Source of the DNA: a virus
Lineage: Duplodnaviria; Heunggongvirae; Uroviricota; Caudoviricetes
Strand: one strand, 5' to 3'
Length of the DNA: 64,000 nucleotides
Virus record (IMG/VR): IMGVR_UViG_3300029705_000054
Coordinates: 1,687 to 65,686 of that record
How positions within the stretch are numbered: position 1 is the stretch's first letter; each line of letters begins with the position of its first letter. The notes beneath the pieces are model-generated. The model worked only from the letters and a program-made list of their open reading frames with translations, did no database searches and was not told the origin of the DNA. Below, piece after piece: positions 20,607 to 63,021 of the stretch. The position numbers were made by a program, and so were the translations under genes.

Positions 20607-20630
20607 TTAAATATAAAAGGAGAGAGGGAA

Positions 20631-21108: not shown

Positions 21109-21112
21109 TATA

Positions 21113-22303: not shown

Positions 22304-22307
22304 ATAT

Positions 22308-25924: not shown

Positions 25925-25996
25925 TGGGGTGTAGCCAAGTGGCAAGGCATCAGACTTTGACTCTGACACCCGCTGGTTCAAATCCAGCCACCCCAG
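25925..25996 (+). tRNA. tRNA-Gln (anticodon TTG) with a U1-A72 pair and G73. No encoded CCA
   Basis: tggggtg..tcaga ctttgac tctga..gctgg ttcaaat ccagc cacccca g. Preceded by a class-B promoter and a ~230-nt structured leader. Confidence 0.6.
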
Positions 25997-26081
25997 GTCG
26001 CACTTAATCAACTACCTCCACGTGGTGTGCGATGGGTTAAGCTAAAAGTTGATAATAAGTATAAAAAGGAGCTATTTAAAT

Positions 26082-26723: not shown

Positions 26724-26904
26724 GCTGATTAAAATATAACCGTTAACACGGATTAGTGACTAAACTACTCCCGACTCAGATCAAGGTGCGGTTCACCGCG
26801 ATATGGTAACGAGGTATGGAGCAATAGCGGAAAACGGTATATAAAGAAGCGAAGTAAGTCACCTTCAGTTGGCGCTACTGAAGTAAACCTCACAGGCGCA
26901 ATAT

Positions 26905-26979
26905 GGGAGCTTAGCTCAGAGGCAGAGCGCAACCCTGTTAAGGTTGATGTCGAGATATCGTAATTCTCAGTTCCCTCCA
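26905..26979 (+). tRNA. tRNA-Asn (anticodon GTT)-like with an atypical T-loop (atcgtaa)
   Basis: gggagct ta gctc..caacc ctgttaa ggttg..agttccc t cca. Confidence 0.45.
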
Positions 26980-27049
26980 AGTACGAGACTTTTCATGGTT
27001 TTCCTCCCTTCAGCGGGTTGGTTGTTACCGCAAAATCAACAACCTTTAT

Positions 27050-27125
27050 GCCGACTTAGCCGAATGGCATAGGCGTTAGTCTTAGGAACTAAAATTTCTG
27101 GGTTCGAATCCCAGAGTCGGTACCA
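27050..27125 (+). tRNA. tRNA with anticodon TAG (reads CUA/Leu) but a class-I fold with a short variable arm
   Basis: gccgact ta gcc gaatggcata ggc g ttagt cttagga actaa aattt ctggg ttcgaat cccag agtcggt a cca. Confidence 0.5.
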
Positions 27126-27642
27126 TGGAGCTACTTCCAAGCCTTGAGCAAATGTAGATGACTTCTGGAGCATTCAGGATTATAAGAGTGCTAACCACGA
27201 GCTGACCTCGCAGCACGAGCACAAAAGTGTCAGGGTTTTTATAACAGGGATTGATAAATGCCAGTGTTATAATATCCTTAATATTGATGAAAAGTTTATC
27301 TATAAGTGAATAACCTTGATTTCATTGAGTATTTTGAGGCGAATACTGCTGGATAATCCAGAGTAGGCTTGAGAGAGCGCCCACGAAAATAAACTGAAAT
27401 CAAATGCCGAGAAAATCGTGGATTTCGTCCACCCGAAGAGTAGCTACGGTGAAATAAGTAGGGTGCGATTGGCGCCGAGGATGTGGCGAGGTTCTGGTAG
27501 ACCAATTAAAAATGTCTAAGCCAGATGTAGATTGAAAGATGAAACGGTTATTTACTCGAATTGAGGATGGTAAGCAAATACCACGCCCAAAAGAAAACAA
27601 TGAGCGGTTGGCTGACCTAAAGCTGTCACCTCTTTAATATAT

Positions 27643-27727
27643 GCACCTGTCGCATAGCGGTCGATTGCACGCGCCTTGTAAGCGCGAGACTCTGTCCACA
27701 TTGGTCCAAATCCAATCAGGTGCTCCA
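27643..27727 (+). tRNA. tRNA-Thr (anticodon TGT)-like with a 13-nt variable region and TCCAAAT T-loop
   Basis: gcacctg..cgcgc cttgtaa gcgcg..attgg tccaaat ccaat caggtgc t cca. Confidence 0.4.
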
Positions 27728-28256
27728 TATGGCGTCAAGAAGAAAGCCTTCTCGTGGCGACGCTGTGAGCCTTAAAAGCGACTAATTTCTTCAATTATAG
27801 TCTCACCTCCTTTCTGAGACAAGGCGGCGCACGCCTGTAAGTCGTCGACATTTGAAGATGCAAAAGTGTTGCGGAGAGCATACTCTGACAAACCTCTGTG
27901 GCTGGGTCATAAGCTCGGGTAACTGACACATTCCGCCCTTGGAAATCCGTTAGTGTCGCTAAACGAGGACTACGGGAAAGGTCTTCGTTTCTTCCCATTT
28001 TCACTTGATATGCAGAACTGTGCGAAGGTCGCACCTTCGGAAAAGATCAATAGGAGCAGGAATCAGGTGATCACTGCGCAAATATCAAGTTAATCTATAA
28101 TAATGCTTAAGAGAGCCTCTGCCCCAAACACAGCGCTCTGTCAAAAGAAGCCGTTTGCACGGTCTCGCAAGAGATAGTACTTGGTAGGGTTGGGAAAAGT
28201 GTGGATACAATTAACTACTCCACAGGAAATTCAATTGACAATCTTAAGCGCCCTCT

Positions 28257-28331
28257 GCAGGTGTCGTATAACGGCTATTACTTCTGCCTTCCAAGCAGAA
28301 GATCTGGGTTCAACTCCCAGTACTTGCTCCA
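28257..28331 (+). tRNA. tRNA-Gly (anticodon TCC)
   Basis: gcaggtg..tctgc cttccaa gcaga agat ctggg ttcaact cccag tacttgc t cca. Confidence 0.55.
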
Positions 28332-28421
28332 TATAGGCTGGCTCCTACAGCCTATCATTTTTCTACCCTTCCTTTCTGCTTACCCCCGCGATGTACGTTG
28401 TCGCGGGGGCTTTGATAAAAT

Positions 28422-28496
28422 GGCGCGCTAGCCAAATGGTTAAGGCGCAGGCCTGCAAAGCCTTGATTCCGCGTTCGAGTCGCGGGCGCGCCTCCA
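28422..28496 (+). tRNA. tRNA-Cys (anticodon GCA)
   Basis: ggcgcgc ta gcc..caggc ctgcaaa gcctt..ccgcg ttcgagt cgcgg gcgcgcc t cca. Confidence 0.6.
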
Positions 28497-47107: not shown

Positions 47108-47182
47108 TGGGGAGTCGTCGAAAGGTCAAGACCGTGGTCTCTAAAACCACAGACGTAGGTTCGATTCCTACCTCCCCTGCCA
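47108..47182 (+). tRNA. amber suppressor tRNA with anticodon CTA and a tRNA-Gln-like architecture (U1, G73, 3-bp D-stem with large D-loop)
   Basis: tggggag tc gtc gaaaggtcaa gac c gtggt ctctaaa accac agac gtagg ttcgatt cctac ctcccct g cca. Closely parallels the tRNA-Gln(TTG) at 25925. A strong hairpin terminator follows (47190..47218). Confidence 0.7.
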
Positions 47183-47725: not shown

Positions 47726-47835
47726 AATAAGCCATAGAGTTAATCTATGGCTTTTTGAATTGAAAAAATATAAAAAATATGTTATAATATATTATAAGTA
47801 AATAAAAATGAATAAAATAAAATAAAGGAGAAAAT

Positions 47836-49746
47836 ATGGCAGATAGTAAATTATATACTAAGGACTCAATCGAATCTTTATCGCCGCTAGAATTTACTCG
47901 TCTTAGGCCAGGGGTATATGCAGGAGACACGACCTATGCAACTCAGCTCTTGGTTGAGATAATTTCTAACTCGGTTGATGAATTTAGATTGGGTCATGGT
48001 AATCAAATCGATGTAGAGCTTCGAGATGCTAAGGTTAGAGTTAGAGACTATGGTCAGGGCTTCTTGGTAAATGAAAAGCGCGATGATGGTAAAACTATCC
48101 TAGAGGCAGCTTTCTCAGTTCTGAATACCTCCGGAAAGTATCGAGAGGATGGAACTTATGAAGGAACATCATTAGGTAGCTTCGGTATTGGCTCAAAGAT
48201 TACTACATTCCTTTCTCATTGGTTGCGCGTTGTAACTATTCGAGATAAGAAAATGGAAAGCGTCAATTTTAGAGAAGGTGTATTCGATCAGCGAGTAACG
48301 GGCATTGAAAATAAAGAACCTACAGGTACTATTGTAGAGTACGAACCAAGCGAAGAGTTCTTTACTCATCCAGAAGTAGAAGTGTCTAAAATTCATTCTT
48401 TATTTGAAACAATCACTTGTCTTTGCCCTGGGTTAACGATTAATCTTGATGATAATGGAAAGAAAACTGTTTATCATTCAACTCGTGGATTAAATGATTT
48501 AGCAGATAAAGCAGTAAAAGATAAAGAAATAATCAATAACAGATTTTCTATGAATTTTAGTGAAGGAAAAGAGAAAATGGACTTTATCCTCACTTATACC
48601 AGCAATTATTCCTCTACTCTGGTTCCATATGTGAATACTGGACTTACAGAGAAAGGACCTCATATCACACAGATTAAGACAGTACTCACAAGAGAATTTA
48701 ATAAGTTCTTCAAGGAGAAAAAGTGGTTGAAATCTACTGACGAGAATCTGTCTGGTGATGATATCCAAGAGGGAATGTATATTGTATTTAATATTACTGC
48801 ACCCAATGTATCTTATGATGCACAGGTTAAGAGTAATATTACTAAAATTGGTATGACAACCTTTACTCAGGCACTCGCAGAGAATTTAAGTATTTGGTTG
48901 AATAATAATGAAAAGGAAATCAAAGTAATTGCAGATAAAGCAATTAATGCAAGAAAGGCAAGAGAAGCTGCTAAAAAGGCGCGAGACGCGGCTCGTGGCG
49001 ACAAAAAAGAAAAGAAAAATAAACTTCTTAACCTTCCAACAAAACTCGTTGACGCAAATAGCAAAAACAGGCTTGAATGTGAGCTGTATATCTGTGAAGG
49101 CGATAGTGCCGCAGGTGGATTGATTAAGGTTCGAGATTCTGAAACACAAGGCATTTTTCCAATCCGTGGAAAATTAATCAATCTTTACAAGAATTCTCCA
49201 GAGAAAGTTCTTGCTAATGCAGAAGTAAATAATCTAAAGAAAGCTCTTGGTCTTGATATTGATCCTCGAACAGGTAAATTGATTTATGATACTTCAAAGC
49301 TTCGTTATGGAAAAATTCTTACAGCTTGTGATGCAGATCCTGATGGCATGGCTATAAAAAATCTTATATTAACTTGCCTATGGACTATTTGTCCAGAGCT
49401 TATTTTAAATGGTCACGTTTATGTAACAGTTCCGCCTCTTTATAGAATCACTAAGGGAAAAGATAAATATATCTACCTTAAAGATAATGAGGAGCTAGAG
49501 AAATATAAAAATGAACATCGAAACGAGAAGTTCGTTATCAACAGAAACAAGGGACTTGGAGAACAGGATAGCGAAGAATTAGAGCCCTGCTTACTAAATC
49601 CTGAGACTCGCAATATCAATCAGATTATAGTTCCCGATAAAAAGCAGGCAGATATTATGTTTGAAACATTAATGGGGACTGCTGTTCCTCCAAGGCGCGC
49701 ATGGCTATTGGCGCACAGCGAAGAAGCAAGCGATGGATTGTGGTAA
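47836..49746 (+). CDS. type II DNA topoisomerase ATPase/Toprim subunit (GyrB/T4 gp39-like)
   Basis: GHKL ATPase region EIISNSVDE..GxG and Toprim ELYICEGDSAAG..PIRGKLINL. Confidence 0.7.
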   Translation: MADSKLYTKDSIESLSPLEFTRLRPGVYAGDTTYATQLLVEIISNSVDEFRLGHGNQIDVELRDAKVRVRDYGQGFLVNEKRDDGKTILEAAFSVLNTSGKYREDGTYEGTSLGSFGIGSKITTFLSHWLRVVTIRDKKMESVNFREGVFDQRVTGIENKEPTGTIVEYEPSEEFFTHPEVEVSKIHSLFETITCLCPGLTINLDDNGKKTVYHSTRGLNDLADKAVKDKEIINNRFSMNFSEGKEKMDFILTYTSNYSSTLVPYVNTGLTEKGPHITQIKTVLTREFNKFFKEKKWLKSTDENLSGDDIQEGMYIVFNITAPNVSYDAQVKSNITKIGMTTFTQALAENLSIWLNNNEKEIKVIADKAINARKAREAAKKARDAARGDKKEKKNKLLNLPTKLVDANSKNRLECELYICEGDSAAGGLIKVRDSETQGIFPIRGKLINLYKNSPEKVLANAEVNNLKKALGLDIDPRTGKLIYDTSKLRYGKILTACDADPDGMAIKNLILTCLWTICPELILNGHVYVTVPPLYRITKGKDKYIYLKDNEELEKYKNEHRNEKFVINRNKGLGEQDSEELEPCLLNPETRNINQIIVPDKKQADIMFETLMGTAVPPRRAWLLAHSEEASDGLW

Positions 49747-49761
49747 TAAGGAGAATAAAAA

Positions 49762-52104
49762 ATGGATAATAATAAACAAATAAACATATGTGATGAATTA
49801 TCAAATAACTTTATAGATTTTAGTTATGAAGCCAATTCATGTCGTGCTTTTGCTGACGCAAGAGACGGCTTAAAACCAGGTCAACGCGCTTGTCTTTGGG
49901 AAATGTATCATAAAGGATATCTTTCTTCTAAACCAACAGTAAAAGGCGCAAAAGTAGCTGGCGCAGTATCGGGTAACTGGTGGCCGCACGGAGATGTAGC
50001 TATCTATGAAACTTTTACTCGTATGTCTCAGCCATGGATTAATAATGTTCCAGAAGTAGACTGGAAAGGAAATAATGGTTCTCAAATTATTCCTGACTCA
50101 GCCGCTTCTTCAAGGTATACAGAAACTCGTCTTTCAAAAGCAACTGAAGAGGGTATGTTCCATGCTATTAAAAAGCGAGTAGTAAAAATGATTCCCAACT
50201 ATTCTGAAGACGATGAATGGCCAGAGGTTCTTCCTGCGATTTTCCCTCGCTTAATGGTAAATGGATGTCAAGGAATAGGAAGCACAATAGCAAACGTATG
50301 GTTGCCGCATAACTTAACTGATATAGGAAATGTTATTCTTAACTATATTGAAACTAACACTGTTGATTTTACAGGCTTAGCTCCAGATTTTCCTACGGGA
50401 TGTCAGATAATTAATAAAAACGATTTAGCGCCTATTTATGCAACAGGCAAAGGCAAAGTCACACTTAGGGCAAGAGCAGATATAGTAAAAGACCATATCT
50501 ATTTTAGAGAACTTCCTTATCAGGTGTATGTTGAGCCTCTTATTGAAAAAATTAAAGAGCTTGCATCAAAAGGCGAAATCACTGGCGTAGATGCGGTTTA
50601 TAATAGAAGTAGTAAAAAGGGTATTGAAATAGATGTAGAATGTGGTGAAAATCCCGATGCAGTATTAAAACAGCTGTATTCTAAGACTGATTTACAAAAA
50701 TCATATAGCGCAAACCAATGGGCGCTTGTGGGTAAAACTCCAAGACTTCTTACTCTTAAAGACTATTGTGAGATTTATGTAGACCATAATTTACTTTGTA
50801 TTCAAAATGAAGCACAGTTTGATTTGGAAAAGGCGCAAGATAGACTTCATATCGTTGAAGGACTTCTTCATGCATTGGAAGATATCGATAACATTATCGC
50901 GCTCATTAAGACATCTGCAAGTGCGGCGGCCGCTAAGGATGCGTTAATCGCCACCTATAAGTTCTCTGAAGCACAAGCAAAAGCTATCGTAGATATGAAA
51001 CTTGGTAAGCTCGCTGGACTTGAAAAGGTTGAGCTGAATCAAGAGGCAAACGAACTCCACAAAGAAGTTGAGGAATTAAATACCCTCTTCCTTAACGAAA
51101 CCAAGCAGCGTGAAGTATTGCGCGAACGCCTTACCGCATTCATTAAGAAATATGGTGACTCACGCAGAACTGGTCTTGAGCAGATCGAGCTTCCCAAGGT
51201 AGAGAAGGAAATCGAAACCGTAGTACCTGAAGACTGCGTAGTAATAGCGACACAAAATGGCGATATTAAGAGAGTGCCCGCCGCATCTTTTAAAACGCAA
51301 AAGCGCAACGGCAAAGGCGTAAAGACAACAGATGACGCAATCCTTGACATGATTTCTACCAACACTGTCGATACTTTAATGTTCTTTACTGATAAAGGTA
51401 AAATGTATCGTCTATTGGTAGATAAAGTTCCTACTGGCACTAATGCTTCGAAGGGCGGACGCATCGGCGCCTTGATTAATATAGAAGCAGATGAAAAAGT
51501 AGTAGCTATGACTTCACTATATCGCAAGAGTCAAGCAGAATATGTTATCTTTATTACAAAGCAGGGACTTTTCAAAAAGACAAAGTTAGAAGAATATCTC
51601 CAAACAAAACGAGCAACAGGTATTACCGCAATTAAGTTTAAGGAAGGTGATTCACTTGCTACTGTTACTTTTGCTAATGAAGAAGATTTTATCATTCTTA
51701 CAAAACAAGGAATGAGTATTCGCTTTGAAACGAAAGAGATTGCTCCTATTGGGCGCGTAACCTCTGGTGTAAAGAGCATTAAATTAAACGAGGGTGATGA
51801 GGTTTTAACTGGTTTGCCTATTAAGCATAAGACTGATACTCTTGCAACATTTAGCGCGAATGGTATGGGGCGCAAGACCTTGCTTGAAGAATTCCCTGTC
51901 CAGGGTAGAGGTGGCAAGGGCCTAAAGATAGGAAGTGGAGACCTGGCTGGCGCAGCGTTGATTAGCGATGAAGATAATCTTCTCATAGTCGGTTCGCCAA
52001 ATAGCATCTGCATATCAGCCACTGAAATTCCGCTCTTAGCGCGCACGGCGCAAGGTAATATAATGATTAAAAATAGTACCATAAAAGGAGTAATTAAAAT
52101 ATGA
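49762..52104 (+). CDS. type II DNA topoisomerase DNA-cleavage subunit (GyrA/ParC/T4 gp52-like)
   Basis: N-terminal DGLKPGQRACLWEMY signature of GyrA/ParC, 780 aa. Confidence 0.7.
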   Translation: MDNNKQINICDELSNNFIDFSYEANSCRAFADARDGLKPGQRACLWEMYHKGYLSSKPTVKGAKVAGAVSGNWWPHGDVAIYETFTRMSQPWINNVPEVDWKGNNGSQIIPDSAASSRYTETRLSKATEEGMFHAIKKRVVKMIPNYSEDDEWPEVLPAIFPRLMVNGCQGIGSTIANVWLPHNLTDIGNVILNYIETNTVDFTGLAPDFPTGCQIINKNDLAPIYATGKGKVTLRARADIVKDHIYFRELPYQVYVEPLIEKIKELASKGEITGVDAVYNRSSKKGIEIDVECGENPDAVLKQLYSKTDLQKSYSANQWALVGKTPRLLTLKDYCEIYVDHNLLCIQNEAQFDLEKAQDRLHIVEGLLHALEDIDNIIALIKTSASAAAAKDALIATYKFSEAQAKAIVDMKLGKLAGLEKVELNQEANELHKEVEELNTLFLNETKQREVLRERLTAFIKKYGDSRRTGLEQIELPKVEKEIETVVPEDCVVIATQNGDIKRVPAASFKTQKRNGKGVKTTDDAILDMISTNTVDTLMFFTDKGKMYRLLVDKVPTGTNASKGGRIGALINIEADEKVVAMTSLYRKSQAEYVIFITKQGLFKKTKLEEYLQTKRATGITAIKFKEGDSLATVTFANEEDFIILTKQGMSIRFETKEIAPIGRVTSGVKSIKLNEGDEVLTGLPIKHKTDTLATFSANGMGRKTLLEEFPVQGRGGKGLKIGSGDLAGAALISDEDNLLIVGSPNSICISATEIPLLARTAQGNIMIKNSTIKGVIKI

Positions 52105-53035: not shown

Positions 53036-55048
53036 ATGGCTAATTATACAAGAATGAAAGAGCTTATTGAGTTTCTAAATCATCATCAAGAGCTTTATGA
53101 TAAAAGTACCCCTGCAATTAGCGATAAAGAGTGGGATGATGCCTATTTTGAATTAAAGAATCTTGAAGAAGTTGCTGGAGAAAGCCTACCTGGATCTCCA
53201 ACTCAAAAGATAAGATATGAAGTTGTATCGGAGCTTCGCAAAGTATCTCATGATGAAGACTTTCCTATGCTTTCTCTTGATAAGACAAAAGAGATTGCTG
53301 ATATCGAAGATAAATTTGGAAATAAGCAATGGATTGCAATGGCTAAATGTGATGGTCTATCATGTCGTCTTATCTATCAAGGCGGGCGCCTAATTCAAGC
53401 GGCTACTCGAGGCAATGGCGAGGTGGGAGAGGATATCACACACAACGCTAAAGTTGTAAAAAATATACCCAAGTGGATTCCGCATGATGGCAGACTTGTA
53501 GTCGATGGAGAGATAGTCTGTTTTTCGCAAGACTTTGCACCTTTTGCAGAGGAGTATGCTAACTCAAGAAACTTTGCGGCGGGTAGTATTAGATTGCTTG
53601 ACAGCGCTGAGTCTGCAAAGCGAAATTTGAGTTTTATTGCGTGGGACTGTATTTATGACGATAAAAGTGAAAGTAACTTTTTATCAGCTCAACTCGAAGA
53701 TTTAAGTCTTTATGGGTTTGAGGTTGTCTCCTGGAGCGTTTCAGGAAGTCAATCTATAACAGAAGCAATAGATAGTTTAAAATGGGATAGTGAAAGAATA
53801 GGCTTACCTATTGATGGAGTGGTTTTTAAATTAAATAATAAAAGCGAATACTATGCCACTGGGATTACCGCCCATCATCCAAAAGCGGCAATTGCGTTTA
53901 AATTTTATGATGAAGAATATGAAACCGAGCTATTAGATATTGAATGGAGTATGGGTAAAACGGGAGTGCTTAGTCCAGTTGCTATTTATCGAGAAATAGA
54001 AATGGAAAATACAATGTGCTCAAGAGCAAGCCTTCATAATATCAATACTTTAGTCGAGATTCTTGGTGAATATCCCTATGTAGGACAAAAAATAAAAACA
54101 TATAAGGCATTAATGATTAATCCTCAAGTAAGTTGGGGGGAAAAAGCGGAAGAAATATTTGGCGCGGATCCGGGTTATTATCTTAACGATCCAGAAATTA
54201 AATTCTTATTTCCACCTAAGAAATGTCCAATCTGCGGCGCGCCAACAGAAATCAGAGAGAGCGATAGTGGAACTATTGAGCTGTATTGTTCAAGTGATAC
54301 TTGCGAAGGAAAGCTCATAAACAAGCTAGACCATTTCTGTGGTAAGAAAGGTCTCGACATTAAAGGCTTGTCTAAAGCTACCTTAGAAAAACTTATTGAC
54401 TGGGGCTGGATTACAAGAGCAAAGGATCTATTCTATCTATACCAATGCGAGTCTGAGTGGATTAATAAGCCAGGATTCGGCGCAAAGAGCGTAAAGAAGA
54501 TTTTGGATGCTATTGAAGAGGCGCGTCACACGACACTTGAGAAGTATTTAAGCGCGATTAGTATTCCGCTTATAGGGAAGACTTATGCACGTCAGTTGGC
54601 GCAGATATTTGAAACTTATCAAAACTTTAGAGTATCTGTAACTCCCGATCCTATCACTGGTATTAAACCTTTTGACTTTACACAGATTGATGGATTTGGT
54701 CCAGCAATGCATGAGGCAATCATGAGTTTTAATTATTATGAGGCAGATAGAATGGTTGATATGAATATCATTGACTTTGTCGAAGAAGAAGGCGCACTGG
54801 AAAATTCTGGAAATGCGCTTGAGGGTAAGATTTTTTGTGTCACGGGTCGAGTCCATATCTGGAAGAACCGAGACGAACTTTCAGCGGCAGTGACCGCCGC
54901 AGGTGGCAAGGTAACATCATCAGTCTCTTCAAAAACCGATTATCTCGTAAACAATGATGTTACAAGCACATCATCAAAAAATCTTAAAGCAAAAGAGCTC
55001 GGTATTCCAATTATCACTGAAGAACAGTTACAGGAGTTAATGAAATGA
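53036..55048 (+). CDS. ligA: NAD+-dependent DNA ligase (LigA)
   Basis: Adenylation motif KCDGLSCRL (KxDG), Zn-finger Cys cluster CPICG..C..C, C-terminal BRCT-like region GKIFCVTGRV. Confidence 0.75.
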   Translation: MANYTRMKELIEFLNHHQELYDKSTPAISDKEWDDAYFELKNLEEVAGESLPGSPTQKIRYEVVSELRKVSHDEDFPMLSLDKTKEIADIEDKFGNKQWIAMAKCDGLSCRLIYQGGRLIQAATRGNGEVGEDITHNAKVVKNIPKWIPHDGRLVVDGEIVCFSQDFAPFAEEYANSRNFAAGSIRLLDSAESAKRNLSFIAWDCIYDDKSESNFLSAQLEDLSLYGFEVVSWSVSGSQSITEAIDSLKWDSERIGLPIDGVVFKLNNKSEYYATGITAHHPKAAIAFKFYDEEYETELLDIEWSMGKTGVLSPVAIYREIEMENTMCSRASLHNINTLVEILGEYPYVGQKIKTYKALMINPQVSWGEKAEEIFGADPGYYLNDPEIKFLFPPKKCPICGAPTEIRESDSGTIELYCSSDTCEGKLINKLDHFCGKKGLDIKGLSKATLEKLIDWGWITRAKDLFYLYQCESEWINKPGFGAKSVKKILDAIEEARHTTLEKYLSAISIPLIGKTYARQLAQIFETYQNFRVSVTPDPITGIKPFDFTQIDGFGPAMHEAIMSFNYYEADRMVDMNIIDFVEEEGALENSGNALEGKIFCVTGRVHIWKNRDELSAAVTAAGGKVTSSVSSKTDYLVNNDVTSTSSKNLKAKELGIPIITEEQLQELMK

Positions 55049-55296
55049 AAGTTAACATAAACTTAAAAGATTCAAATAGTCATGCGCCAATGAACCGAGA
55101 GCAGCGTAAGGCAATGCATAAGCGCCTTATGCCTAAAATTAAGCGCATTGTAGAACTCGAAAAGCAAATAAAAGCAGGCATTGATAAAGACGCAGCTGAA
55201 ACTGAAATGACCCAAATCATTGAAAGCTGCACAATGATTGAGATGTTTGCCATCGAAGATTATATCTATAACAAGAATCTACTTGACAATCATTAA
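55045..55296 (+). CDS. hypothetical basic protein (83 aa)
   Basis: ATGA overlap with the ligase stop. Confidence 0.45.
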   Translation: MKVNINLKDSNSHAPMNREQRKAMHKRLMPKIKRIVELEKQIKAGIDKDAAETEMTQIIESCTMIEMFAIEDYIYNKNLLDNH

Positions 55297-55375
55297 AATT
55301 TATTATATAATTATAATAACAATAGCAGAGAATAAAAAACTGCAAATATTAAGATATAAAAGGAGAATTAAGGCA

Positions 55376-55627
55376 ATGGCTTTAAAAGACAATTCACTCA
55401 CAATTTTTAACTATGTAAGAGAGCATGATGGAGAGGACTTTACTGCATAGGATATTTCAGAAGCAACTGGTATCGGTGTAAAGTCTGTAAATGGATGCCT
55501 CACAGCAATGGCAAGACACCACGATCTTATTTATCGTGAAGAGGTTGCTGTAACTGGCGGTAAGGTAAAATATATCCGTCTAACTGAAACGGGAAAATGT
55601 TTTGATCCTGAGGCAACGGAAGACTAA
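55376..55627 (+). CDS. winged-helix DNA-binding protein with one in-frame TAG
   Basis: MALKDNSLTIFNYVREHDGEDFTA-Q-DISEATGIGVKSVNGCLTAMARHH. Similar fold pattern to 59390..59773. Confidence 0.45.
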
Positions 55628-55678
55628 TTAAAAAGGAAAATAAGGGGTAATTATGCAATTACCCCTTAAATTGTAAAG

Positions 55679-56662
55679 ATGATAGTATTATGCGTAATAT
55701 CAATTCTTCTTGGTGTGAGCGGTCTTGCTTATGGAGTATGGGTTAAAGCCACATCTGTAAAAGCTAATCGCTATACAGCAGAAGAAAATTAGAAACTAGA
55801 AGAACTCAATTAGTCATTACAAGCAACTCGCAAAAGCTTAGAAGCACAAAATAACTTATTGATAAAATCTAACAATGAAATTTCTCAAAAATATGAAGAG
55901 AACTGTAAAAAAACAAAAAATTCTTACGACGAATTAAATCAATTAACTCAATAGAAATTGTTGTTAATAAATGAAATTCAAAATAAGCAAATTGAAAAAG
56001 CAGGAATTGAGGCGCAAATTGCTGCTTTCAGCAGCTCTGTAGAGACAATGTCAGGTGACTTAAAGGCAGCTGCGCTCGCCTCCTTTGAACAATATTGTGA
56101 GACTCTTGATTATGAATATCAAAAACGCGAACAAGAGTTCGATATTGAAGTGGACACTCTTGATCAATTATATTTTGACAGACTTCAAGAACTTGATGCA
56201 AGAGAAAAAGGATTAATTGAAGAGCGACGTCAAGATATTGACACTCTTGTGCAATTATTTTATGATAAGCAATAGTCAATGTCTAAAGAATTACAAGAAG
56301 AAGAGGCGGCAATGCGCGCCGACCTAGACTCAATCCGCAAAGAGCTAGAAAAAATTCGTGCAACCAAGGCCGCCACAATGGAAGCACAACTTCGTGAAGA
56401 AGAAATTAAAAATCAAGCAACATTTTATACTCTTCAACTTAATGAGGCAGATAAGCGAGACGTGGCATATCTTCAAAGTATTGAATATAATCTACGCGAA
56501 GCAAGACCTTTGCGTATGCTTATATGGACTACTTTCTATAGAGATAAAGTCAATGACCTTGCGGCGCGCGTAGGTGCGTTGGGCGCCAGTGGAATATATA
56601 AGATAACACACATTGACTCTGGTATATCTTATATCGGACAAGCGGTCAATGTTGGCCGATGA
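55679..56662 (+). CDS. membrane-anchored coiled-coil protein whose C-terminus carries the first half of a GIY-YIG (T5orf172-like) motif. 4 in-frame TAG codons. Interrupted downstream by an endonuclease insertion
   Basis: TM helix MIVLCVISILLGVSGLAYGVWV, long coiled coil, then ..SGIYKITHIDSGISYIGQAVNVGR followed by TGA. Confidence 0.4.
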
Positions 56663-56860
56663 AAAACTTTACCTAGTAGCTGCTAGGGGTCGCTAACTTA
56701 TAGTGGCTAACGAGGAAAATATTTTTTAATAAAATACAATCTCGTGGGAAATTTTGATTAATCCATCTTCCATAAAAATAATATATATATGAACAACTGA
56801 TGAATATAACATTATAGGAGGCATAAAATGCAAAAATTATTTTTATCTAAGATGACACCA

Positions 56861-57775
56861 AATGACATTATTAGCGGAATTTATAAAATTAATTACCCAA
56901 ACGGAAAAGCTTACATTGGATAGGCTCAAAATATTCGAGCTAGACTTATGGAGCATAATTCTTATAGTCAAGCTGGACATGGTTCAAGAGAACTTCTATT
57001 GTGTGAGCAAAAAATGAAAGAATACAATATTATTATTGATGAGTTTGAATTACTTGAAACAGTTTCTGACTTATCGTTATTAGATGATAAAGAAAGATAT
57101 TGGATTTCCTTTTATAAAACCTATATTAAAGATGGACACGGATACAATAAAACCCGAGGAGGAGACGCTTCGGGGAAACGAGGGACTGAAAATCCTAATG
57201 CAGCTTTAAATGAAAATCAACTTAAAGAAATAATTGATTTGTTAATTAATCATACAGAGTTTTCTTTAACAGAGATAGGTAATAAATATGGAGTAGGACA
57301 AGGTACTATATTAAATATTTCAACAGGTAGAACCTATGTTAATCCAAACTTAGTTTACCCATTAAGAAAAAATAATCATGACTCAGCGTGTAAGACAGAA
57401 GTTTTAGATTATTTTTCCTCCGAAGAAGAGCTAGTTAATTTAAAAGAAGATTTATTGTATCGTTGGGATTTACCAATTCAAGGTGGTATAGATATTAAAT
57501 ATAATATTCCAATCAGGGTATTAAGAGACATTAATAATGGAAGAAAATTTGCAGAAATAGGGAAATATAGTTATCCTATTAGAGCAAAAAACATTCGCAA
57601 TAATCATAATTTAACTTTAGAGGATGTTTAGAATATTTTAGATCTGTTACGTAATACTAATACTTCTATGGATAATATTGGTGCACAATATAACATAGGG
57701 CGTTCAACTATAAGTAATATTAATTTAGGAAAAACTTATATTCTTAAAGATTATGATTATCCTGCTAGAAAATAA
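56861..57775 (+). CDS. GIY-YIG homing endonuclease (inserted element). One in-frame TAG. There is an apparent +1 frameshift relative to an RBS-proximal ATG at 56827, in a TTTT run
   Basis: ..YKINYPNGKAYIG-Q-AQNIRARLMEHN. Removing one T from ggaatttt (56876..56881) would give MQKLFLSKMTPNDIISGIYKINYPNGKAYIGQ, a canonical GIY start served by RBS taggagg. Confidence 0.5.
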
Positions 57776-57933
57776 TGGATTAATTGAAAAACCTGTATCG
57801 ACTATTCCCTAGGCCTTATGGGCGGGGAAGTAGGGCTATTATTAGCACATAGTAGTATTTTAGGAAACGAAGTACTTTAAATGCCGAAATGGTTTCCTGT
57901 AATAAAAATTACAGTAAAAAATAGTCAAAATTA

Positions 57934-58161
57934 ATGCAACATTAAAGAGCGCTGGGTAACGCATGTCAAATGCAGCTTAGGTATCGATACCCCTGTAACA
58001 AGTCAACTTTATGCATTTACAAAAGAAAAGGGTATTGATAACTTTACTTTTGAAATACTTGAAAAATGTAATATCAATGAATTAAATGAAAAGGAGAAGT
58101 TTTATATTGACCTCTATCAGACATATGATTTTGGACTGAATAAAACTCGCGGAAATAGTTA
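57934..58161 (+). pseudogene. 3' fragment of the interrupted GIY-YIG domain (..IKERWVTH..YAF..NFTFEILE..) with an internal frameshift near 58085
   Basis: Frame 1 reads CNIKERWVTHVKCSLGIDTPVTSQLYAFTKEKGIDNFTFEILEKCNINEIK*. The rest (KEKFYIDLYQTYDFGLNKTRGNS*) is in frame 2. Confidence 0.4.
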
Positions 58162-58611
58162 AATGTATATTAAACTAGAATGGACAGATGAAATTGGTGA
58201 TATTGAAGAAAAAGAGTTTTGGTCTTGGGGAGACTGTTTTAGCTTTGTTTTTAAAATGTACGACCAAAAATGGAAGAAAATACGCAAGGAGTTAAAATTG
58301 AAATGAAAGTAGATATTTGGATAACAACAGACGAAGGCGCAGAGTATCATGCTGAAAACCTAAGCTGGAACGAAGCTTGCGCCATAATAGTAGATAAGCA
58401 TAACCAAGAAGAACTGTTTAATCTACTTAATAATGAAGTTATTAAAGATTATATAAAGGATGTGGCAAATGAAAGTAACAAGAATTGAAATCTCTCTTGA
58501 ATGGGAGGATAGCGGCGAATTTGAGCATGAAACTTATGAAGACTCTTTTGATGATGCAATTCGCGTACTAAAGAAAATGAAAAAGAAATATCAAGATGGA
58601 ATAAAGGAGGA

Positions 58612-60973: not shown

Positions 60974-60992
60974 TAAAAAGAGGTAAGTGAAA

Positions 60993-61556
60993 ATGGCAGA
61001 TTTTAATTTACTTGATATTTAGCCTCATTAGGTTTCAAGAGATATGCGCGGTTATTGCGTCTTCTTCTATGGAGACGCAAAGACCGGTAAAACTACTACC
61101 GCGACTAAATTCCCTAATCATCTTTTGGCGGCTTTTGAAAAAGGATATAATGCAATTCCCGGCGCCATGGCACAACCTATTAATAGTTGGTCTGAGTTTA
61201 AAAAATTCTTGCGCCAGTTAAAGAATGAACAGGTTAAAGCTAGATTCGAAACTATTATCCTTGATACAGCTGATATAGCCTATGACTATTGTGAGAAATA
61301 TATTTGCGCCAATGCAGTTCGTCCAGATGGCTCTATAGGCGTCGATAGCATCGGTGACATTGGTTACGGAAAGGGCTTCAAAATGGCAGCGCAAGAGTTT
61401 GATAGCGCGCTTCGTTCAATCCTTCAATTAGGATACGGCTTAGTAATTATTTCTCACGCGCAAGACAAAACCTTTAAGGATCAAAATGGCAATGAGTATA
61501 ATCAGATTGTTCCTACTCTTGATAATAAACCTCGTAATATTGTAAACCGTATGGCT
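60993..61556 (+). CDS. RecA-fold AAA_24-like ATPase, putative exon 1 (2 in-frame TAG codons at the N-terminus). It may be spliced to 62533..63021
   Basis: MADFNLLDI-Q-PH-Q-VSRDMRGYCVFFYGDAKTGKTT (Walker A), IILDTAD (Walker B), VIISHAQ. Strong RBS aaaaagaggtaagtgaaaATG. Confidence 0.5.
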
Positions 61557-62532
61557 TAACATTTTTATTTCATATTTTCGCTCTCTTAAAGAAGGAGTTG
61601 AAAGTTTTTTGAGAAAATATCCTTTAAATTTAACAAACATTAAAATAGACCCTCATGAAAAATATTATTGGCTTGGATTTTTAGCTGGAGATGGAAATGT
61701 AGCTAAAAATGAAGCCAGAGTAAGAGTTGAGTTAAAAGATATAGATAGAGAGCAGCTTGAAAATTTACAAGCATTCTTTGAATCTAATGCGCCCATTACA
61801 GAGCGTACTAATAACACTGGATGTCATGCTTTAACTGTATCTATAAACTCGGCAGAGTTAAAACGTTATTTAGCACAATATAATATAGTACCTGCAAAAA
61901 CCTCTATTTTTAGTATTCCCCTTGAAAACATTCCTAATGAATATATTTATGATTTTGCAAGAGGATTGCTAGATGCAGATGGTAGTATTCACATTAGAGA
62001 AGATAGAAACAATATTCCTAGTTTAAGTTTTGTCAGTCAAACTGAGATCTGCACAAAACAAATGCTAGAAATTTTAGAGTTTGATAATAAAGTAAGTCCT
62101 TGTGGAACCTCTGCTTATCAAATTCATAAAGAAGGCGCTGCAGTTGTACAAATTTTAAATAAAATTTATGAACATTCAACCGAGGCCTCTCGGTTGAGAC
62201 GAAAATATGAAATATATAAGGCCCTTAATGGAGCAATCCATTAAGCAAATCATGTGAATTGCTGGAAACCCCTTAGAGTTAATCAAACTACAGCATAAGA
62301 ATGAAAGAAATCTAAGTGCGAATGTTAAAAATTGATTAAATTGGGCAATCAGCAGCCAAGCTCCGAATAGGAGAAGGTTCAACGACTATCCCACTGGAGG
62401 ATGAAATTTCCTCAACAGGAGTAGGGCTTTTATAATAATATAAAAGTAGGTGAAAATCCTTTAAATCGAAGTGCATGACATCCACCGTTTAAAATGGATG
62501 AAGATATAGTCTATTCCCATTAAAATATCTTG
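61557..62532 (+). mobile_element. group I intron (candidate, phage IA-type) carrying a LAGLIDADG endonuclease ORF
   Basis: Conserved core elements seen directly: P-like gaattgctggaaacc (62256), Q aatcagcag (62346), R gttcaacgactat (62377), S aagatatagtct (62501). Confidence 0.55.
61609..62244 (+). CDS. LAGLIDADG homing endonuclease (double-motif), intron-encoded
   Basis: Motifs LGFLAGDGNV and LLDADGSIHI. Confidence 0.65.
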   Translation: MRKYPLNLTNIKIDPHEKYYWLGFLAGDGNVAKNEARVRVELKDIDREQLENLQAFFESNAPITERTNNTGCHALTVSINSAELKRYLAQYNIVPAKTSIFSIPLENIPNEYIYDFARGLLDADGSIHIREDRNNIPSLSFVSQTEICTKQMLEILEFDNKVSPCGTSAYQIHKEGAAVVQILNKIYEHSTEASRLRRKYEIYKALNGAIH

Positions 62533-63021
62533 AAAAAGAGGGTATTAAAGGACATAATAGGATATGCGAGAACTGTTGAGTCTGAGTCTGGTGAGAAATC
62601 TACAAAACTCTTTATGCGCGGAACTCCTCGTTTCGTAGCTGGAAGTAGATTTAAGTATACGCCTGATTATATTGACTTCAACTATAATGCTCTTGTTAAT
62701 GCAATAGGAGATGCTATTGATAGACAGGCGGCTGAGGATGGAACTCAATACTTCACAGATACTGGCGCCAACTTGCATACATTCGTTTCAAAAGAACTTG
62801 ATTTCGATGAACTTATGATGCAGTTTAACTCAATGATTCAAGACCTCTCGGTTCAAAGCGACGAAGAAACATTCAAAACTTATTGGCAACCTCGTATTAG
62901 TCAATGCATAGAGAAATATCTTGGTAAAGGACAAAAAGTTTCTCAGTGCTCTCGCGAACAGACAGAAGCGCTTGACCTTATTGTGACGGAACTTAAAGAT
63001 TTGATAAATACAGCTCAATAA
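62533..63021 (+). CDS. putative exon 2 of the ATPase gene (or a separate hypothetical protein with TTG start at 62530)
   Basis: In frame with exon 1 if the splice joins ..cgt atg gct | aaa aag agg.. No ATG or RBS of its own. Confidence 0.35.
   Translation, partial: KKRVLKDIIGYARTVESESGEKSTKLFMRGTPRFVAGSRFKYTPDYIDFNYNALVNAIGDAIDRQAAEDGTQYFTDTGANLHTFVSKELDFDELMMQFNSMIQDLSVQSDEETFKTYWQPRISQCIEKYLGKGQKVSQCSREQTEALDLIVTELKDLINTAQ

What the first reader, a model, noticed from the sequence alone, without database searches (positions are those of the whole stretch)
55679..58161. Nested GIY-YIG locus: an endonuclease gene inserted inside a GIY-YIG domain, with two homopolymer-associated frameshifts
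A TM-plus-coiled-coil ORF ends with the first half of a GIY-YIG motif (SGIYKITHIDSGISYIGQAVNVGR) and then stops. About 1.24 kb downstream the second half of the domain resumes (IKERWVTH..YAF..NFTFEILE..KEKFYIDLY..GLNKTRGNS). In between lies a complete GIY-YIG homing endonuclease gene whose own GIY start (SGIYKINYPNGKAYIGQ) resembles the interrupted one, which suggests homing into a paralog. The flanks contain weak group-I-like strings (cgactat, aaaatagtc), so an intron is possible but unproven. Both the inserted endonuclease and the 3' fragment contain frameshifts inside T4 and A-rich runs (about 56878 and 58085). These may be real decay, programmed slippage, or homopolymer sequencing errors.
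Basis: seen in the sequence. Interest (0 to 1): 0.55.

Follow-up and report, generated by a model that had tools for sequence, protein, structure and literature searches.

The report
Homing intron splitting a phage nuclease gene
A phage nuclease gene is interrupted by a mobile self-splicing (group I) intron carrying its own homing endonuclease gene; the supposed frameshifts are in-frame TAG codons that this phage reads as glutamine, so the locus is intact and fairly ordinary, not decayed.

Summary
The split GIY-YIG domain and the inserted GIY-YIG endonuclease gene are real. The two "frameshifts" are not.

- **Frames.** ORF 56828..57775 is one frame with two in-frame TAGs. The 3' fragment is one clean frame.
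- **Genetic code.** The window encodes a tRNA with anticodon CUA (47108..47182). The host gene has four in-frame TAGs, found at identical codons in a relative. TAG is read as Gln (code 15).
- **Insertion.** It is exactly 1290 nt (56647..57936). Removing it gives a 397-aa protein, collinear residue for residue with many uninterrupted homologues (best 92% identical, also 397 aa).
- **RNA.** The non-coding parts fold as a T4 td-like group I intron: P1 with a U·G at the 5' splice site, a 6-bp P10, the P3/P7 pseudoknot, P4-P6, P7.1, P7.2, P8 and a terminal G. The ORF sits in the P6a loop. Covariation across related introns supports the fold.
- **Rfam.** Intron_gpI does not detect it. It also scores the proven td intron below its own threshold. 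A model of this RNA class recognises td and a validated intron at 62177.
- **Selection.** The endonuclease and exon 2 show purifying selection (omega about 0.05).

Verdict: an active mobile intron, a new member of a known kind. Recoded intron endonucleases have already been reported.

The parts
55679..56646 (+). Exon 1 of the host gene. It encodes a hydrophobic N-terminus, a long coiled-coil-like region and the first part of the GIY-YIG domain (...GIYKITHIDSGISYIGQAV). Last base U56646.
   Evidence: Translation. Collinear with intron-less allele L013 3501-4465 at 91%. Homologues P0001 and others.
55790..56275 (+). Four in-frame TAG sense codons in exon 1 (55790-92, 55811-13, 55952-54, 56273-75; codons 38, 45, 92 and 199).
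   Evidence: The same four codon positions are TAG in intron-less allele L013.
56647..57936 (+). Group I intron (td-like, IA2-type), 1290 nt. It begins CAAUGUUGGCCG... and ends ...AAAAUUAAUG.
   Evidence: Clean 1290-nt insertion relative to L013. Junction fixed by uninterrupted homologues and by L006. Structure and covariation. Homology to td and to an Rfam-validated intron.
56643..56658 (+). P1: 5' exon CGGU (56643-46) paired with the internal guide GCCG (56655-58), with a U56646·G56655 wobble at the splice site and an 8-nt loop.
   Evidence: 4 of 4 pairs in all 7 sequences, 2 pairs with compensatory changes that track different host exons.
56649..56654 (+). Intron strand of P10 (AUGUUG), complementary to the first 6 nt of exon 2 (CAACAU, 57937-42).
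   Evidence: 6 of 6 pairs. In L006 the equivalent is AUCG with CGAU (read).
56664..56668 (+). P3 5' strand (AAACU), pairing with 57891-95 (GGUUU).
   Evidence: Predicted independently by RNAalifold. 5 of 5 pairs in all sequences, 3 compensatory (AAACU/GGUUU versus UGGUU/AGCCA).
56672..56705 (+). Two peripheral hairpins: A (CCUAG..CUAGG, 56672-87) and B (CGCUA..UAGUG, 56691-705).
   Evidence: Read directly. Hairpins at the same positions with different sequences in L006, L010, L005 and EF1 (sequences). Not formally counted because MAFFT misaligns them.
56710..56745 (+). P4 (ACGAGG 56710-15 with UCUCGU 56740-45) enclosing P5 (UAUUUU 56720-25 with AAAAUA 56731-36).
   Evidence: P4 has 6 of 6 pairs in all sequences and one compensatory G-C to A-U change. 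The same ACGGGG/UCCCGU helix is in T4 td.
56746..56764 (+). P6 (GG) and the 5' strand of P6a (UUUUGAUUAAUCC, 56752-64). The helix closes the loop that holds the endonuclease ORF.
   Evidence: 13 of 13 pairs here; 7 of 13 pairs have compensatory changes across relatives.
56816..56821 (+). Shine-Dalgarno AGGAGG, 6 nt upstream of the endonuclease ATG.
   Evidence: Sequence.
56828..57775 (+). GIY-YIG homing endonuclease ORF, 315 aa when TAG is read as Gln, located in the P6a loop. In-frame TAGs at 56921-23 (the Q of the YIGQ motif) and 57629-31.
   Evidence: Single frame. Pfam GIY-YIG 30.0 bits against cutoff 22.6. PHROG 7168 homing endonuclease, E=3e-22, over residues 17-307. Full-length homologue in L006. 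omega 0.06 with both TAGs conserved in L014.
57777..57793 (+). 3' strands of P6a (GGAUUAAUUGAAA, 57777-89) and P6 (CC, 57792-93).
57800..57804 (+). P7 5' strand (GACUA), pairing with 57922-26 (UAGUC). It forms a pseudoknot with P3.
   Evidence: 5 of 5 pairs in 9 sequences, 3 compensatory (GACUA/UAGUC versus GGUCA/UGACC in Lak-type introns).
57805..57876 (+). Peripheral block: P7.1 (UUCCC 57805-09 with GGGAA 57825-29), the invariant GUAGGG, P7.2 (GCUAU 57835-39 with AUAGU 57849-53), and hairpin C (57854-61 with 57869-76).
   Evidence: All 100% paired, each with 2 compensatory pairs. 84-89% identical to Enterococcus phage EF1 and Lak-A1. Aligns with CGACUAUCCCUUUGGGGAGUAGGG of T4 td.
57891..57895 (+). 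P3 3' strand (GGUUU).
57897..57914 (+). P8 hairpin (CUGUAAU-AAAA-AUUACAG).
   Evidence: 7 of 7 pairs here. Different but self-complementary sequences at the same place in L006, L010, L005, EF1 and Lak.
57922..57936 (+). P7 3' strand (UAGUC, 57922-26), a 10-nt tail and the terminal G (omega-G, 57936). There is no P9 hairpin.
   Evidence: The terminal G is conserved in L014 although the preceding base differs.
57937..58162 (+). Exon 2: the rest of the GIY-YIG domain ((V)NIKERWVTHVKCSLGIDTP...GLNKTRGNS) and the TAA stop. It has no start codon or ribosome-binding site of its own.
   Evidence: Collinear with L013 4473-4688 at 92.6%. omega 0.05 against intron-bearing allele L014.
47108..47182 (+). 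Suppressor tRNA, anticodon CUA. It is needed to translate both the host gene and the endonuclease.
   Evidence: ARAGORN and Rfam tRNA at 58.9 bits. 76% identical to the phAss-1 tRNA-Sup-CTA, which PMC10607447 assigns to Gln.

Best explanation
The region is one phage gene interrupted by a mobile group I intron. The gene encodes a 397-aa protein with a hydrophobic N-terminus, a long coiled coil and a C-terminal I-TevI-type GIY-YIG nuclease domain. The intron is 1290 nt (56647..57936) and sits between the YIGQ motif and the catalytic RW..H segment. It is T4 td-like (IA2-type) and carries its own GIY-YIG homing endonuclease gene in the loop of helix P6a.

Proposed mechanism, with each step marked shown or inferred:
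1. The pre-mRNA folds into the P1-P10 core. The fold is shown by covariation.
2. Guanosine-initiated self-splicing joins ...GCGGU to CAACAU... and restores the frame YIGQAV|NIKERWVTH. Splicing is inferred. The product is shown to be collinear with intron-less alleles.
3. The endonuclease, translated from its own AGGAGG/ATG, cuts intron-less alleles in co-infecting relatives. Repair then copies in the intron plus short exon flanks. This is inferred from the presence/absence polymorphism, the cluster of substitutions at the site, and a lower dS in the intron ORF than in the exons.

The phage reads TAG as Gln using its own tRNA(CUA). The host gene (4 TAGs) and the endonuclease (2 TAGs, one in YIG-Q) can therefore be made only when suppression is active. 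There are no frameshifts.
For: - Frames and code: single frames with in-frame TAGs; tRNA-CUA; TAGs at identical codons 38/45/92/199 in allele L013; the endonuclease's YIG-TAG-A aligns with YIGQA (CAA) in L006.
- Junction: uninterrupted homologues of exactly 397 aa read SYIGQAKDIKERW, QATNIKDRW or QARDIKERW, against the spliced QAV|NIKERW. The 327-aa database entries end ...QAVNVGR, like exon 1 read into the intron. blastn shows a clean insertion relative to L013. The spliced protein gives a continuous Pfam GIY-YIG domain, 27.5 bits against 22.6 (on a first-guess product two residues longer).
- RNA: RNAalifold independently finds P1, P3, P4, P6, P6a, P7.1 and P7.2, with 19 of 52 pairs compensatory. 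For the full structure, 94.6% of cells pair against 83.5% in shuffles (0/500) and 36-50% when slid; 21 pairs change on both sides against 11.6 expected. P7 is 5/5 paired in 9 sequences with 3 compensatory pairs. P10 is 6/6.
- Homology to proven introns: class model R1 hits the Rfam-validated intron at 62378-62515 (33.9 bits, E=6e-8) and T4 td (17.9 bits, E=0.003) in register.
- Not decayed: endonuclease omega 0.06; exon 2 omega 0.05 between two intron-bearing alleles; non-coding intron RNA 98% identical while dS is 0.13-0.35.
Against: - Rfam Intron_gpI gives no hit even at E<=10 on the whole insertion or on either half, nor on the related EF1 and Lak loci.
- The intron lacks a P9 hairpin, which relatives L010, L005 and EF1 have. 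Only 10 nt separate P7 from the 3' splice site, so efficient self-splicing is not guaranteed.
- The 5' strand of P3 lies upstream of two hairpins instead of next to P4, which is atypical.
- Splicing and cleavage are not observed directly.
- The exon 2 selection signal could partly predate intron arrival, because dS in the endonuclease (0.13) is lower than in the exons (0.35).
Confidence: 0.88

Rival explanations
1. Non-splicing insertion. A homing-endonuclease cassette with a degenerate intron-like shell has split the host gene. Only the 327-aa TM and coiled-coil fragment is made (ending ...QAVNVGR), and exon 2 is an untranslated remnant.
For: No Rfam Intron_gpI hit. No P9 hairpin. Gene callers report the 327-aa product as a protein (P0020, P0047, P0085). 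Splicing was not observed.
Against: Every core helix is intact and covaries. P1 and P10 are tailored to these particular exons. Non-coding intron RNA is 98% conserved, above synonymous sites. Exon 2 shows 12 synonymous and 3 non-synonymous changes and no stop or indel between intron-bearing alleles, whereas neutral drift at the intron's own dS (0.13) would predict roughly 20 or more changes at non-synonymous sites. Exon 2 also keeps the conserved residues in the distant L006.
Confidence: 0.07
2. Decayed endonuclease graveyard. Both GIY-YIG genes are pseudogenes carrying real frameshifts or nonsense mutations.
For: Under the standard code, both ORFs are broken by stop codons.
Against: There is no frameshift. 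All the breaks are TAG. A tRNA-CUA is encoded. The TAG positions are conserved between alleles. omega is about 0.05-0.06.
Confidence: 0.03
3. Programmed ribosomal slippage, or homopolymer sequencing errors, at about 56878 and 58085.
For: None found. The runs exist, but the frame does not change across them.
Against: Continuous translation through both sites. The same frames are found in independent assemblies L014 and L013.
Confidence: 0.01
4. Another kind of intervening element: an intein, a group II intron, or a translational bypass.
For: The host protein domain is split in frame.
Against: The host frame hits TGA 4 codons into the insertion, and the inserted ORF has its own SD and ATG, so it is not an intein. 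The sensitive Rfam scan shows no group II intron match, and no reverse-transcriptase domain was found in the inserted ORF. 1290 nt is far too long for a bypass.
Confidence: 0.01

Closest known systems
T4 td group I intron (IA2) with I-TevI
   Same: A phage group I intron with a GIY-YIG homing endonuclease ORF looped out of P6a. P1 is 4 bp with an 8-nt loop. It has the same ACGGGG/UCCCGU-type P4, the CGACUAU-CCC...GGG-AGUAGGG block of P7, P7.1 and P7.2, and it ends ...AAUG|. The endonuclease has an N-terminal GIY-YIG domain plus C-terminal HTH-like DNA-binding modules.
   Different: The host gene is a nuclease, not thymidylate synthase. There is no P9, P9.1 or P9.2. An extra conserved hairpin and about 40 nt lie between P7.2 and P3'. 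The 5' strand of P3 precedes two hairpins. The endonuclease is only 25% identical to I-TevI over 79 aa. The ORF contains recoded TAG codons.
Recoded group I intron endonuclease of TGA-recoded 'Agate' phages (Borges et al., bioRxiv 10.1101/2021.08.26.457843)
   Same: An intron-borne homing endonuclease whose ORF carries the phage's reassigned stop codon, proposed there to delay endonuclease synthesis until the code switch. L006 (a 123.6-kb contig with TGA at conserved Trp in the homologous endonuclease and in exon 2) matches that description and carries the same intron in the same gene.
   Different: Here the reassigned codon is TAG to Gln, not TGA to Trp. The host gene itself is also recoded (4 TAGs), so it is not a standard-code 'early' gene. 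The paper does not describe the insertion site or an interrupted GIY-YIG host domain in the passages I read.
Intron in the DNA polymerase III alpha gene of Enterococcus phage EF1 (MF001358) and introns of Lak megaphages
   Same: The same RNA class: the 3' core is 84-89% identical over about 100 nt, the helices are homologous with compensatory changes, and a GIY-YIG ORF occupies the same loop.
   Different: They sit in different host genes with a correspondingly different internal guide sequence. EF1 has a GNRA-capped P9. These introns are not annotated as introns in the records: the EF1 gene pieces are separate CDSs and the Lak records carry no annotation.
phAss-1 / 'Caudoviricetes code 15 clade' phages (PMC10607447)
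   Same: Human-gut phages with TAG read as Gln and tRNA-Sup-CTA genes. phAss-1 encodes an uninterrupted homologue of the host gene with the same architecture and in-frame TAGs.
   Different: The phAss-1 copy has no intron and is only about 32% identical over the C-terminal half. The paper does not mention introns or homing endonucleases (0 occurrences).

Membership tests
Group I intron | Match to Rfam RF00028 (Intron_gpI) at or above the gathering score | tested here: not met
   No hit at gathering and none at E<=10 on 56600-58000 or on either half. Control: the proven ORF-bearing T4 td intron scores only 40.3 bits against a cutoff of 50, with only its 3' half aligned correctly. The test is therefore insensitive for this architecture.
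Group I intron | P1: the 5' exon ends in U, wobble-paired to G of an internal guide sequence that is complementary to the exon | tested here: met
   CGGU|/GCCG with U56646·G56655. 4 of 4 pairs in 7 introns from three different host genes, 2 pairs compensatory.
Group I intron | Terminal guanosine (omega-G) and P10 pairing of the guide sequence with the 3' exon | tested here: met
   G57936. P10 AUGUUG/CAACAU is 6 of 6. L006 has AUCG/CGAU (read). The G is kept in L014 despite a neighbouring substitution.
Group I intron | Conserved core: the P3-P7 pseudoknot, the P4-P5-P6 domain and P8, supported by covariation | tested here: met
   94.6% paired; 21 pairs with changes on both sides (0 of 500 shuffles reach this); slid controls 36-50%; P3 and P7 each have 3 compensatory pairs.
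Group I intron | P9 / P9.0 3'-terminal domain | tested here: not met
   Only 10 nt lie between P7 and omega-G in the window (4 nt in L006). Relatives L010, L005 and EF1 have a GNRA-capped P9.
Group I intron | Sequence and structure homology to experimentally proven group I introns | tested here: met
   Class model R1 hits T4 td (17.9 bits, E=0.003) and the Rfam-validated intron at 62378-62515 (33.9 bits, E=6e-8), aligned in register.
Group I intron | Exon ligation restores the uninterrupted gene exactly | tested here: met
   The predicted product is 397 aa, the same as P0001 and others, with no indel at the junction.
Group I intron | Guanosine-dependent self-splicing | not testable with these tools
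   Needs in vitro transcription and splicing, or RNA-seq.
GIY-YIG homing endonuclease (I-TevI-like) | N-terminal GIY-YIG catalytic domain | tested here: met
   Pfam PF01541, 30.0 bits against 22.6, residues 17-98. PHROG 7168, E=3e-22.
GIY-YIG homing endonuclease (I-TevI-like) | NCBIfam TIGR01453 'group I intron endonuclease' at its curated cutoff | tested here: not met
   The endonuclease scores 41.4 bits against 56.05. The host protein's own domain does pass, at 60.7 bits.
GIY-YIG homing endonuclease (I-TevI-like) | C-terminal DNA-binding modules joined by a linker | tested here: inconclusive
   HTH-like matches fall just under their cutoffs (Sigma70_r4 24.0 against 24.1; CENP-B_N 20.6 against 21.2). 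The PHROG 7168 match spans residues 17-307.
GIY-YIG homing endonuclease (I-TevI-like) | Presence/absence polymorphism at a conserved site, with flanking co-conversion | tested here: met
   Intron-less L013 against intron-bearing window, L014 and L006. Identity drops to 78-83% around the site against 91% overall. All intron-bearing alleles read QAV|N.
GIY-YIG homing endonuclease (I-TevI-like) | Site-specific cleavage of the intron-less allele | not testable with these tools
   Needs expressed protein and a substrate.
TAG-to-Gln recoded phage (genetic code 15) | In-frame TAG in conserved genes, at conserved positions, aligned with Gln | tested here: met
   Four TAGs at identical codons in the window and L013. 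Two at identical codons in the endonucleases of the window and L014. YIG-TAG-A aligns with YIGQA. TAG occurs in only a subset of genes.
TAG-to-Gln recoded phage (genetic code 15) | Phage-encoded suppressor tRNA(CUA) of Gln type | tested here: met
   47108-47182. 76% identical to the phAss-1 tRNA-Sup-CTA, which is assigned to Gln in PMC10607447. It shares the UGGGG acceptor start and the G discriminator with the window's tRNA-Gln (read).
Intein | In-frame insertion translated with the host protein; Hint domain | tested here: not met
   The host frame stops at TGA 56660-62. The inserted ORF has its own SD and ATG. There is no Hint match.

The most novel reading that the evidence does not exclude
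One intron-plus-endonuclease lineage sits at the same site of the same gene in phages that use different genetic codes: TAG read as Gln here and in L014, and probably TGA read as Trp in L006. In each phage the endonuclease ORF carries that phage's own reassigned stop. In the code-15 copies this includes the Q of the catalytic YIGQ motif, which is also TAG in the Lak-A1 intron endonuclease. If so, mobile introns cross genetic-code boundaries and are re-tuned afterwards. The in-frame stops would also act as a translational gate, limiting both the homing endonuclease and the host nuclease to the phase when the suppressor tRNA is active. That would make this locus a natural reporter of code-switch timing.
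Probability: 0.3. Interest if true: 0.55.

Novelty: new member of a known kind. Interest (0 to 1): 0.33.

Why it matters
- **Annotation.** Reading this locus with the standard code and with Rfam alone yields two "broken" nucleases and no intron. The correct reading needs code 15 and comparative RNA analysis.
- **An under-detected intron class.** The same td-like RNA class, which Rfam does not detect, also splits the DNA polymerase III alpha gene of Enterococcus phage EF1 and genes of Lak megaphages, where it is not annotated as an intron. A dedicated covariance model would recover an overlooked set of phage introns.
- **Biology.** The locus adds a TAG-recoded example to the single published note of a recoded intron endonuclease (in TGA-recoded Agate phages). 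It also shows an I-TevI-type nuclease domain, fused to a TM and coiled-coil N-terminus in a conserved phage gene, being targeted by an endonuclease of its own family.
- **Limit.** None of this changes what is understood about group I introns or homing.

Tried and rejected
1. **Rfam Intron_gpI** on the whole insertion, on both halves, and on the EF1 and Lak loci gave no hits. The td control shows the model is weak for this architecture.
2. **First junction guess, 56652|57937** (YIGQAVNVNIKERW). Rejected: it is two residues longer than every uninterrupted homologue, and there is no P1 pairing for ...AAUGU.
3. **Second junction guess, 56660|57948** (creating a TAG codon at the junction, YIGQAVNVGRqRW). 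It was attractive by analogy with EF1's GGGGU|GAAUAAG. Rejected: L006 has TAA in frame before that point, and the homologues fix the spacing.
4. **Helix AGGAAAC/GGUUUCCU within the 3' half.** It is strong in the window but absent from the EF1- and Lak-type introns, and it competes with the covarying P3. Rejected in favour of P3.
5. **P7.1 as CCCUA/UAGGG.** Rejected in favour of UUCCC/GGGAA, which has two compensatory changes.
6. **Weak R1 hits at 26004-26125 and 26175-26287** have many non-canonical pairs and are treated as chance.
7. **Promoter scan.** 15 sites found against 13±3.9 expected, so nothing can be said about an internal promoter for the endonuclease.
8. **TGA-to-Trp in L006, tested with its ligase gene.** The ligase has no in-frame TGA, so the claim rests on two sites only. 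No tRNAs fall within the 10-kb locus.
9. **PADLOC.** The only matches are to the nuclease domain, against homing-endonuclease models and the C-terminus of UzuA. There is no evidence that the host gene belongs to a known defence system.
Full report
**1. What is in the sequence**

- ORF 55679..56662 ends ...SGIYKITHIDSGISYIGQAVNVGR followed by TGA.
- A separate ORF, 56828..57775, has a GIY-YIG start.
- The frame beginning near 57937 reads ...NIKERWVTHVKCSLGIDTP...NFTFEILE...KEKFYIDLY...GLNKTRGNS and stops at 58160-62.
- ORF 56828..57775 translates in one frame. Its only interruptions are TAG at 56921-23 and 57629-31. The 3' fragment is a single open frame. Nothing changes frame at 56878 or 58085.

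**2. TAG is a sense codon here**

- The window carries a tRNA with anticodon CUA at 47108..47182. It is 76% identical to a tRNA-Sup-CTA of phage phAss-1, which its authors assign to Gln (PMC10607447).
- The first TAG of the inserted ORF falls in YIG-TAG-A, where the host gene and the homologous ORF in L006 have YIGQA.
- The four TAGs of the host gene lie at codons 38, 45, 92 and 199, and the same four codons are TAG in an independently assembled allele (L013). The two TAGs of the inserted ORF are likewise conserved in L014.
- In-frame TAGs occur in only a subset of genes. The ligase and several other long genes have none. Recoded phages are reported to show this pattern.
- phAss-1, classified in a 'Caudoviricetes code 15 clade', encodes an uninterrupted homologue of the host gene with the same architecture.

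**3. The insertion is precise**

- I searched the large protein collection with the conceptually spliced protein. It returned many full-length uninterrupted homologues. The best is 92% identical over 100% of the query and exactly 397 aa.
- Across the junction they read SYIGQAKDIKERWVSH, SYIGQATNIKDRWITH or SYVGQARDIKERWVTH. Only one pair of splice sites obeys the U|...G| rule and reproduces this spacing: exon 1 ending at U56646 and exon 2 starting at C57937, giving SYIGQAV|NIKERWVTH.
- Three database entries of 321-327 aa end ...SYIGQAVNVGR, exactly like exon 1 read into the intron. They are intron-bearing alleles.
- At the DNA level, the intron-less allele L013 is collinear with the window on both sides of a clean 1290-nt gap. 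It is 91% identical overall, dropping to 78-83% right at the site.
- I discarded two earlier junction guesses (56652|57937 and 56660|57948) on this evidence.

**4. The non-coding parts fold as a group I intron**

- blastn showed that about 100 nt just downstream of the inserted ORF are 84-89% identical to Enterococcus phage EF1 and to Lak megaphages. A pattern search found eight more viral contigs with this block.
- In EF1 the block lies after a GIY-YIG ORF that splits the DNA polymerase III alpha gene. In L006 it lies in the same host gene as here.
- I built ORF-deleted 'mini-introns' for seven of these and aligned them.
- RNAalifold, with no guidance, predicted P1 (5' exon with guide sequence), a long-range P3, P4, P6, P6a, P7.1, P7.2 and a further hairpin. 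19 of its 52 pairs were compensatory.
- My full structure of 63 pairs is 94.6% paired, against 83.5% in column shuffles (0 of 500 reach it) and 36-50% when partners are slid. 21 pairs change on both sides, against 11.6 expected.
- P7 was invariant in that set. After adding Lak-type 3' halves it is 5 of 5 paired in nine sequences, with three compensatory pairs: GACUA/UAGUC against GGUCA/UGACC.
- P1 (CGGU/GCCG with a U·G at the splice site) changes in step with the different host exons (ACGU/GCGU, GGGU/GCCC). This is the signature of a guide sequence.
- P10 is a perfect 6-bp match between AUGUUG (56649-54) and the first six bases of exon 2. L006 has AUCG/CGAU.
- The endonuclease ORF occupies the loop of P6a, a 13-bp helix with seven covarying pairs, as I-TevI does in T4 td.

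**5. The Rfam test fails, with a control**

- Rfam's Intron_gpI finds a different intron in the window (62177..62532, 78 bits). It finds nothing in this locus even at E<=10, whether I give the whole insertion or either half. It also finds nothing in the EF1 and Lak loci.
- As a control I ran the same scan on the experimentally established T4 td intron, fetched. It scores 40.3 bits, below the family's own cutoff of 50, with only its 3' half correctly aligned. The negative result is therefore weak evidence.
- As an independent positive test I built a covariance model from the 3' halves of this RNA class only (R1). It recognises the Rfam-validated intron at 62378..62515 (33.9 bits, E=6e-8) and the td intron (17.9 bits, E=0.003). 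In both, P7, P7.1, P7.2, P8 and P7' align in register.
- Two features depart from the textbook. There is no P9 in the window or in L006, although relatives have a GNRA-capped P9. The 5' strand of P3 lies upstream of two hairpins instead of next to P4.

**6. Nothing is decayed**

- Comparing the window with another intron-bearing allele (L014), the endonuclease has 23 synonymous and 6 non-synonymous differences (omega 0.06). Exon 2 has 12 and 3 (omega 0.05). The non-coding intron RNA is 98% identical, more conserved than synonymous sites.
- dS is lower in the endonuclease (0.13) than in the exons (0.35-0.43). This suggests the intron is younger than the divergence of the alleles it sits in, as expected for a homing element.
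- The same observation weakens the exon 2 argument, because some exon divergence may predate invasion. Even so, at the intron's own dS, neutral drift would predict about 20 changes at non-synonymous sites of exon 2, and 3 are seen.
- Exon 2 has no start codon or ribosome-binding site of its own, so it can be expressed only after splicing.

**7. The two nucleases**

- The inserted ORF has a Pfam GIY-YIG domain (30.0 bits against 22.6) followed by HTH-like modules just under their cutoffs. It matches a PHROG homing-endonuclease family over residues 17-307. It is only 25% identical to I-TevI.
- The host protein's C-terminal domain is 39% identical to the endonuclease's. It passes NCBIfam's curated cutoff for 'group I intron endonuclease' (60.7 bits against 56.05), whereas the intron's own endonuclease does not (41.4).
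- The host gene therefore carries an I-TevI-type nuclease domain fused to a hydrophobic N-terminus and a long coiled coil. I infer both of those from the sequence only.
- Its function is unknown. PADLOC matches only the nuclease domain.

**8. Relatives and prior art**

- L006 (a 123.6-kb viral contig) has the same gene, the same intron and a full-length homologous endonuclease.
- In L006, TGA stands at the invariant Trp of RW(K/V)xH in exon 2 and at the Trp of E(K/R)YW in the endonuclease. No TAG is in frame. This suggests a TGA-to-Trp phage. It rests on two sites only: its ligase has no in-frame TGA, and no tRNA falls within the 10-kb locus.
- Borges et al. (bioRxiv 10.1101/2021.08.26.457843) already report that in TGA-recoded Agate phages of about 127 kb, a group I intron endonuclease preferentially uses the reassigned stop. 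They propose that this delays endonuclease synthesis. A recoded intron endonuclease is therefore not new.
- The phAss-1 paper mentions neither introns nor homing endonucleases.

**9. Verdict**

The locus is an intact phage gene interrupted by a td-like group I intron with a GIY-YIG homing endonuclease, in a phage that reads TAG as Gln.
- Shown here: the fold, the exact junction and the mobility signature.
- Inferred: splicing and cleavage.
- Classification: a new member of a known kind.
- Points of modest interest: the nested GIY-YIG arrangement, the missing P9, an intron class that Rfam misses and that is unannotated in EF1 and Lak genomes, and its apparent presence in phages with two different genetic codes.

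Noticed in passing
window 60987-63021: A second HEG-bearing group I intron. Rfam Intron_gpI hits 62177-62532 at 78 bits. It is preceded by a LAGLIDADG ORF at 61546-62244 (Pfam LAGLIDADG_3, 34 bits). It interrupts a P-loop ATPase-like gene that starts at 60987 and has two in-frame TAGs. Its 3' half shares the P7/P7.1/P7.2 block with the intron studied here.
   Followed up: partly
window 19999-28496, and 6423-6494: A dense tRNA array, with 17 of the 19 ARAGORN calls in this stretch. Two calls have odd 4-base 'anticodons' (6423-6494 tcgt; 22980-23070 tgga). Rfam also reports tRNA matches that are unusually long (25084-25234, 151 nt; 23362-23461, 100 nt) or absent from ARAGORN (24491-24559). These may be tRNAs with insertions.
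   Followed up: no
window, whole: In-frame TAGs are confined to a subset of genes, for example 16983-17825 (6), 33756-36605 (2), 55238-55627 (1) and 60987-61559 (2). The ligase (53036-55048) and ORFs 30759-33245, 47821-49746 and 49759-52104 have none.
   Followed up: partly
L014 1-2359 and L015 2-1518: In two relatives the NAD-dependent DNA ligase gene, which is intact in the window at 53036-55048, is split by a 170-aa HNH endonuclease ORF lying between the adenylation/OB part and the BRCT part. This is another mobile-element polymorphism in the same neighbourhood.
   Followed up: no
L013 5447-6037: The intron-less relative carries a free-standing GIY-YIG + NUMOD3 gene just upstream of the ThyX-like gene. 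That stretch (L013 about 5025-6324) has no blastn counterpart in the window.
   Followed up: partly
L003 about 1560-2460 (Prevotella phage Lak-A1): The GIY-YIG ORF inside the Lak-A1 copy of this intron class also has TAG at the Q position of its YIG-Q motif (...KVYIG-TAG-TYH...) and several further in-frame TAGs. This may be chance, given how often TAG replaces CAG in code-15 phages.
   Followed up: no
L002 (Enterococcus phage EF1, MF001358) 1690-2667: The DNA polymerase III alpha gene is annotated as separate CDSs plus 'hypothetical proteins'. The layout and covariation indicate an unannotated group I intron of 978 nt with a GIY-YIG ORF. The predicted exon junction ...ATGGGGT|ATTCTTTC... restores MG|YSFS.
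   Followed up: partly
window 55641-55668: A perfect 12-bp palindromic hairpin (TAAGGGGTAATT-GCAT-AATTACCCCTTA) lies between the small upstream gene and the start of the host gene. The scan scored it as terminator-like on the minus strand only.
   Followed up: no
window 55337-55627 and L006 7996-8296: A small conserved gene, with one in-frame TAG in the window, directly precedes the host nuclease gene in both the window and L006. The order ligase, small gene, nuclease gene is conserved.
   Followed up: no
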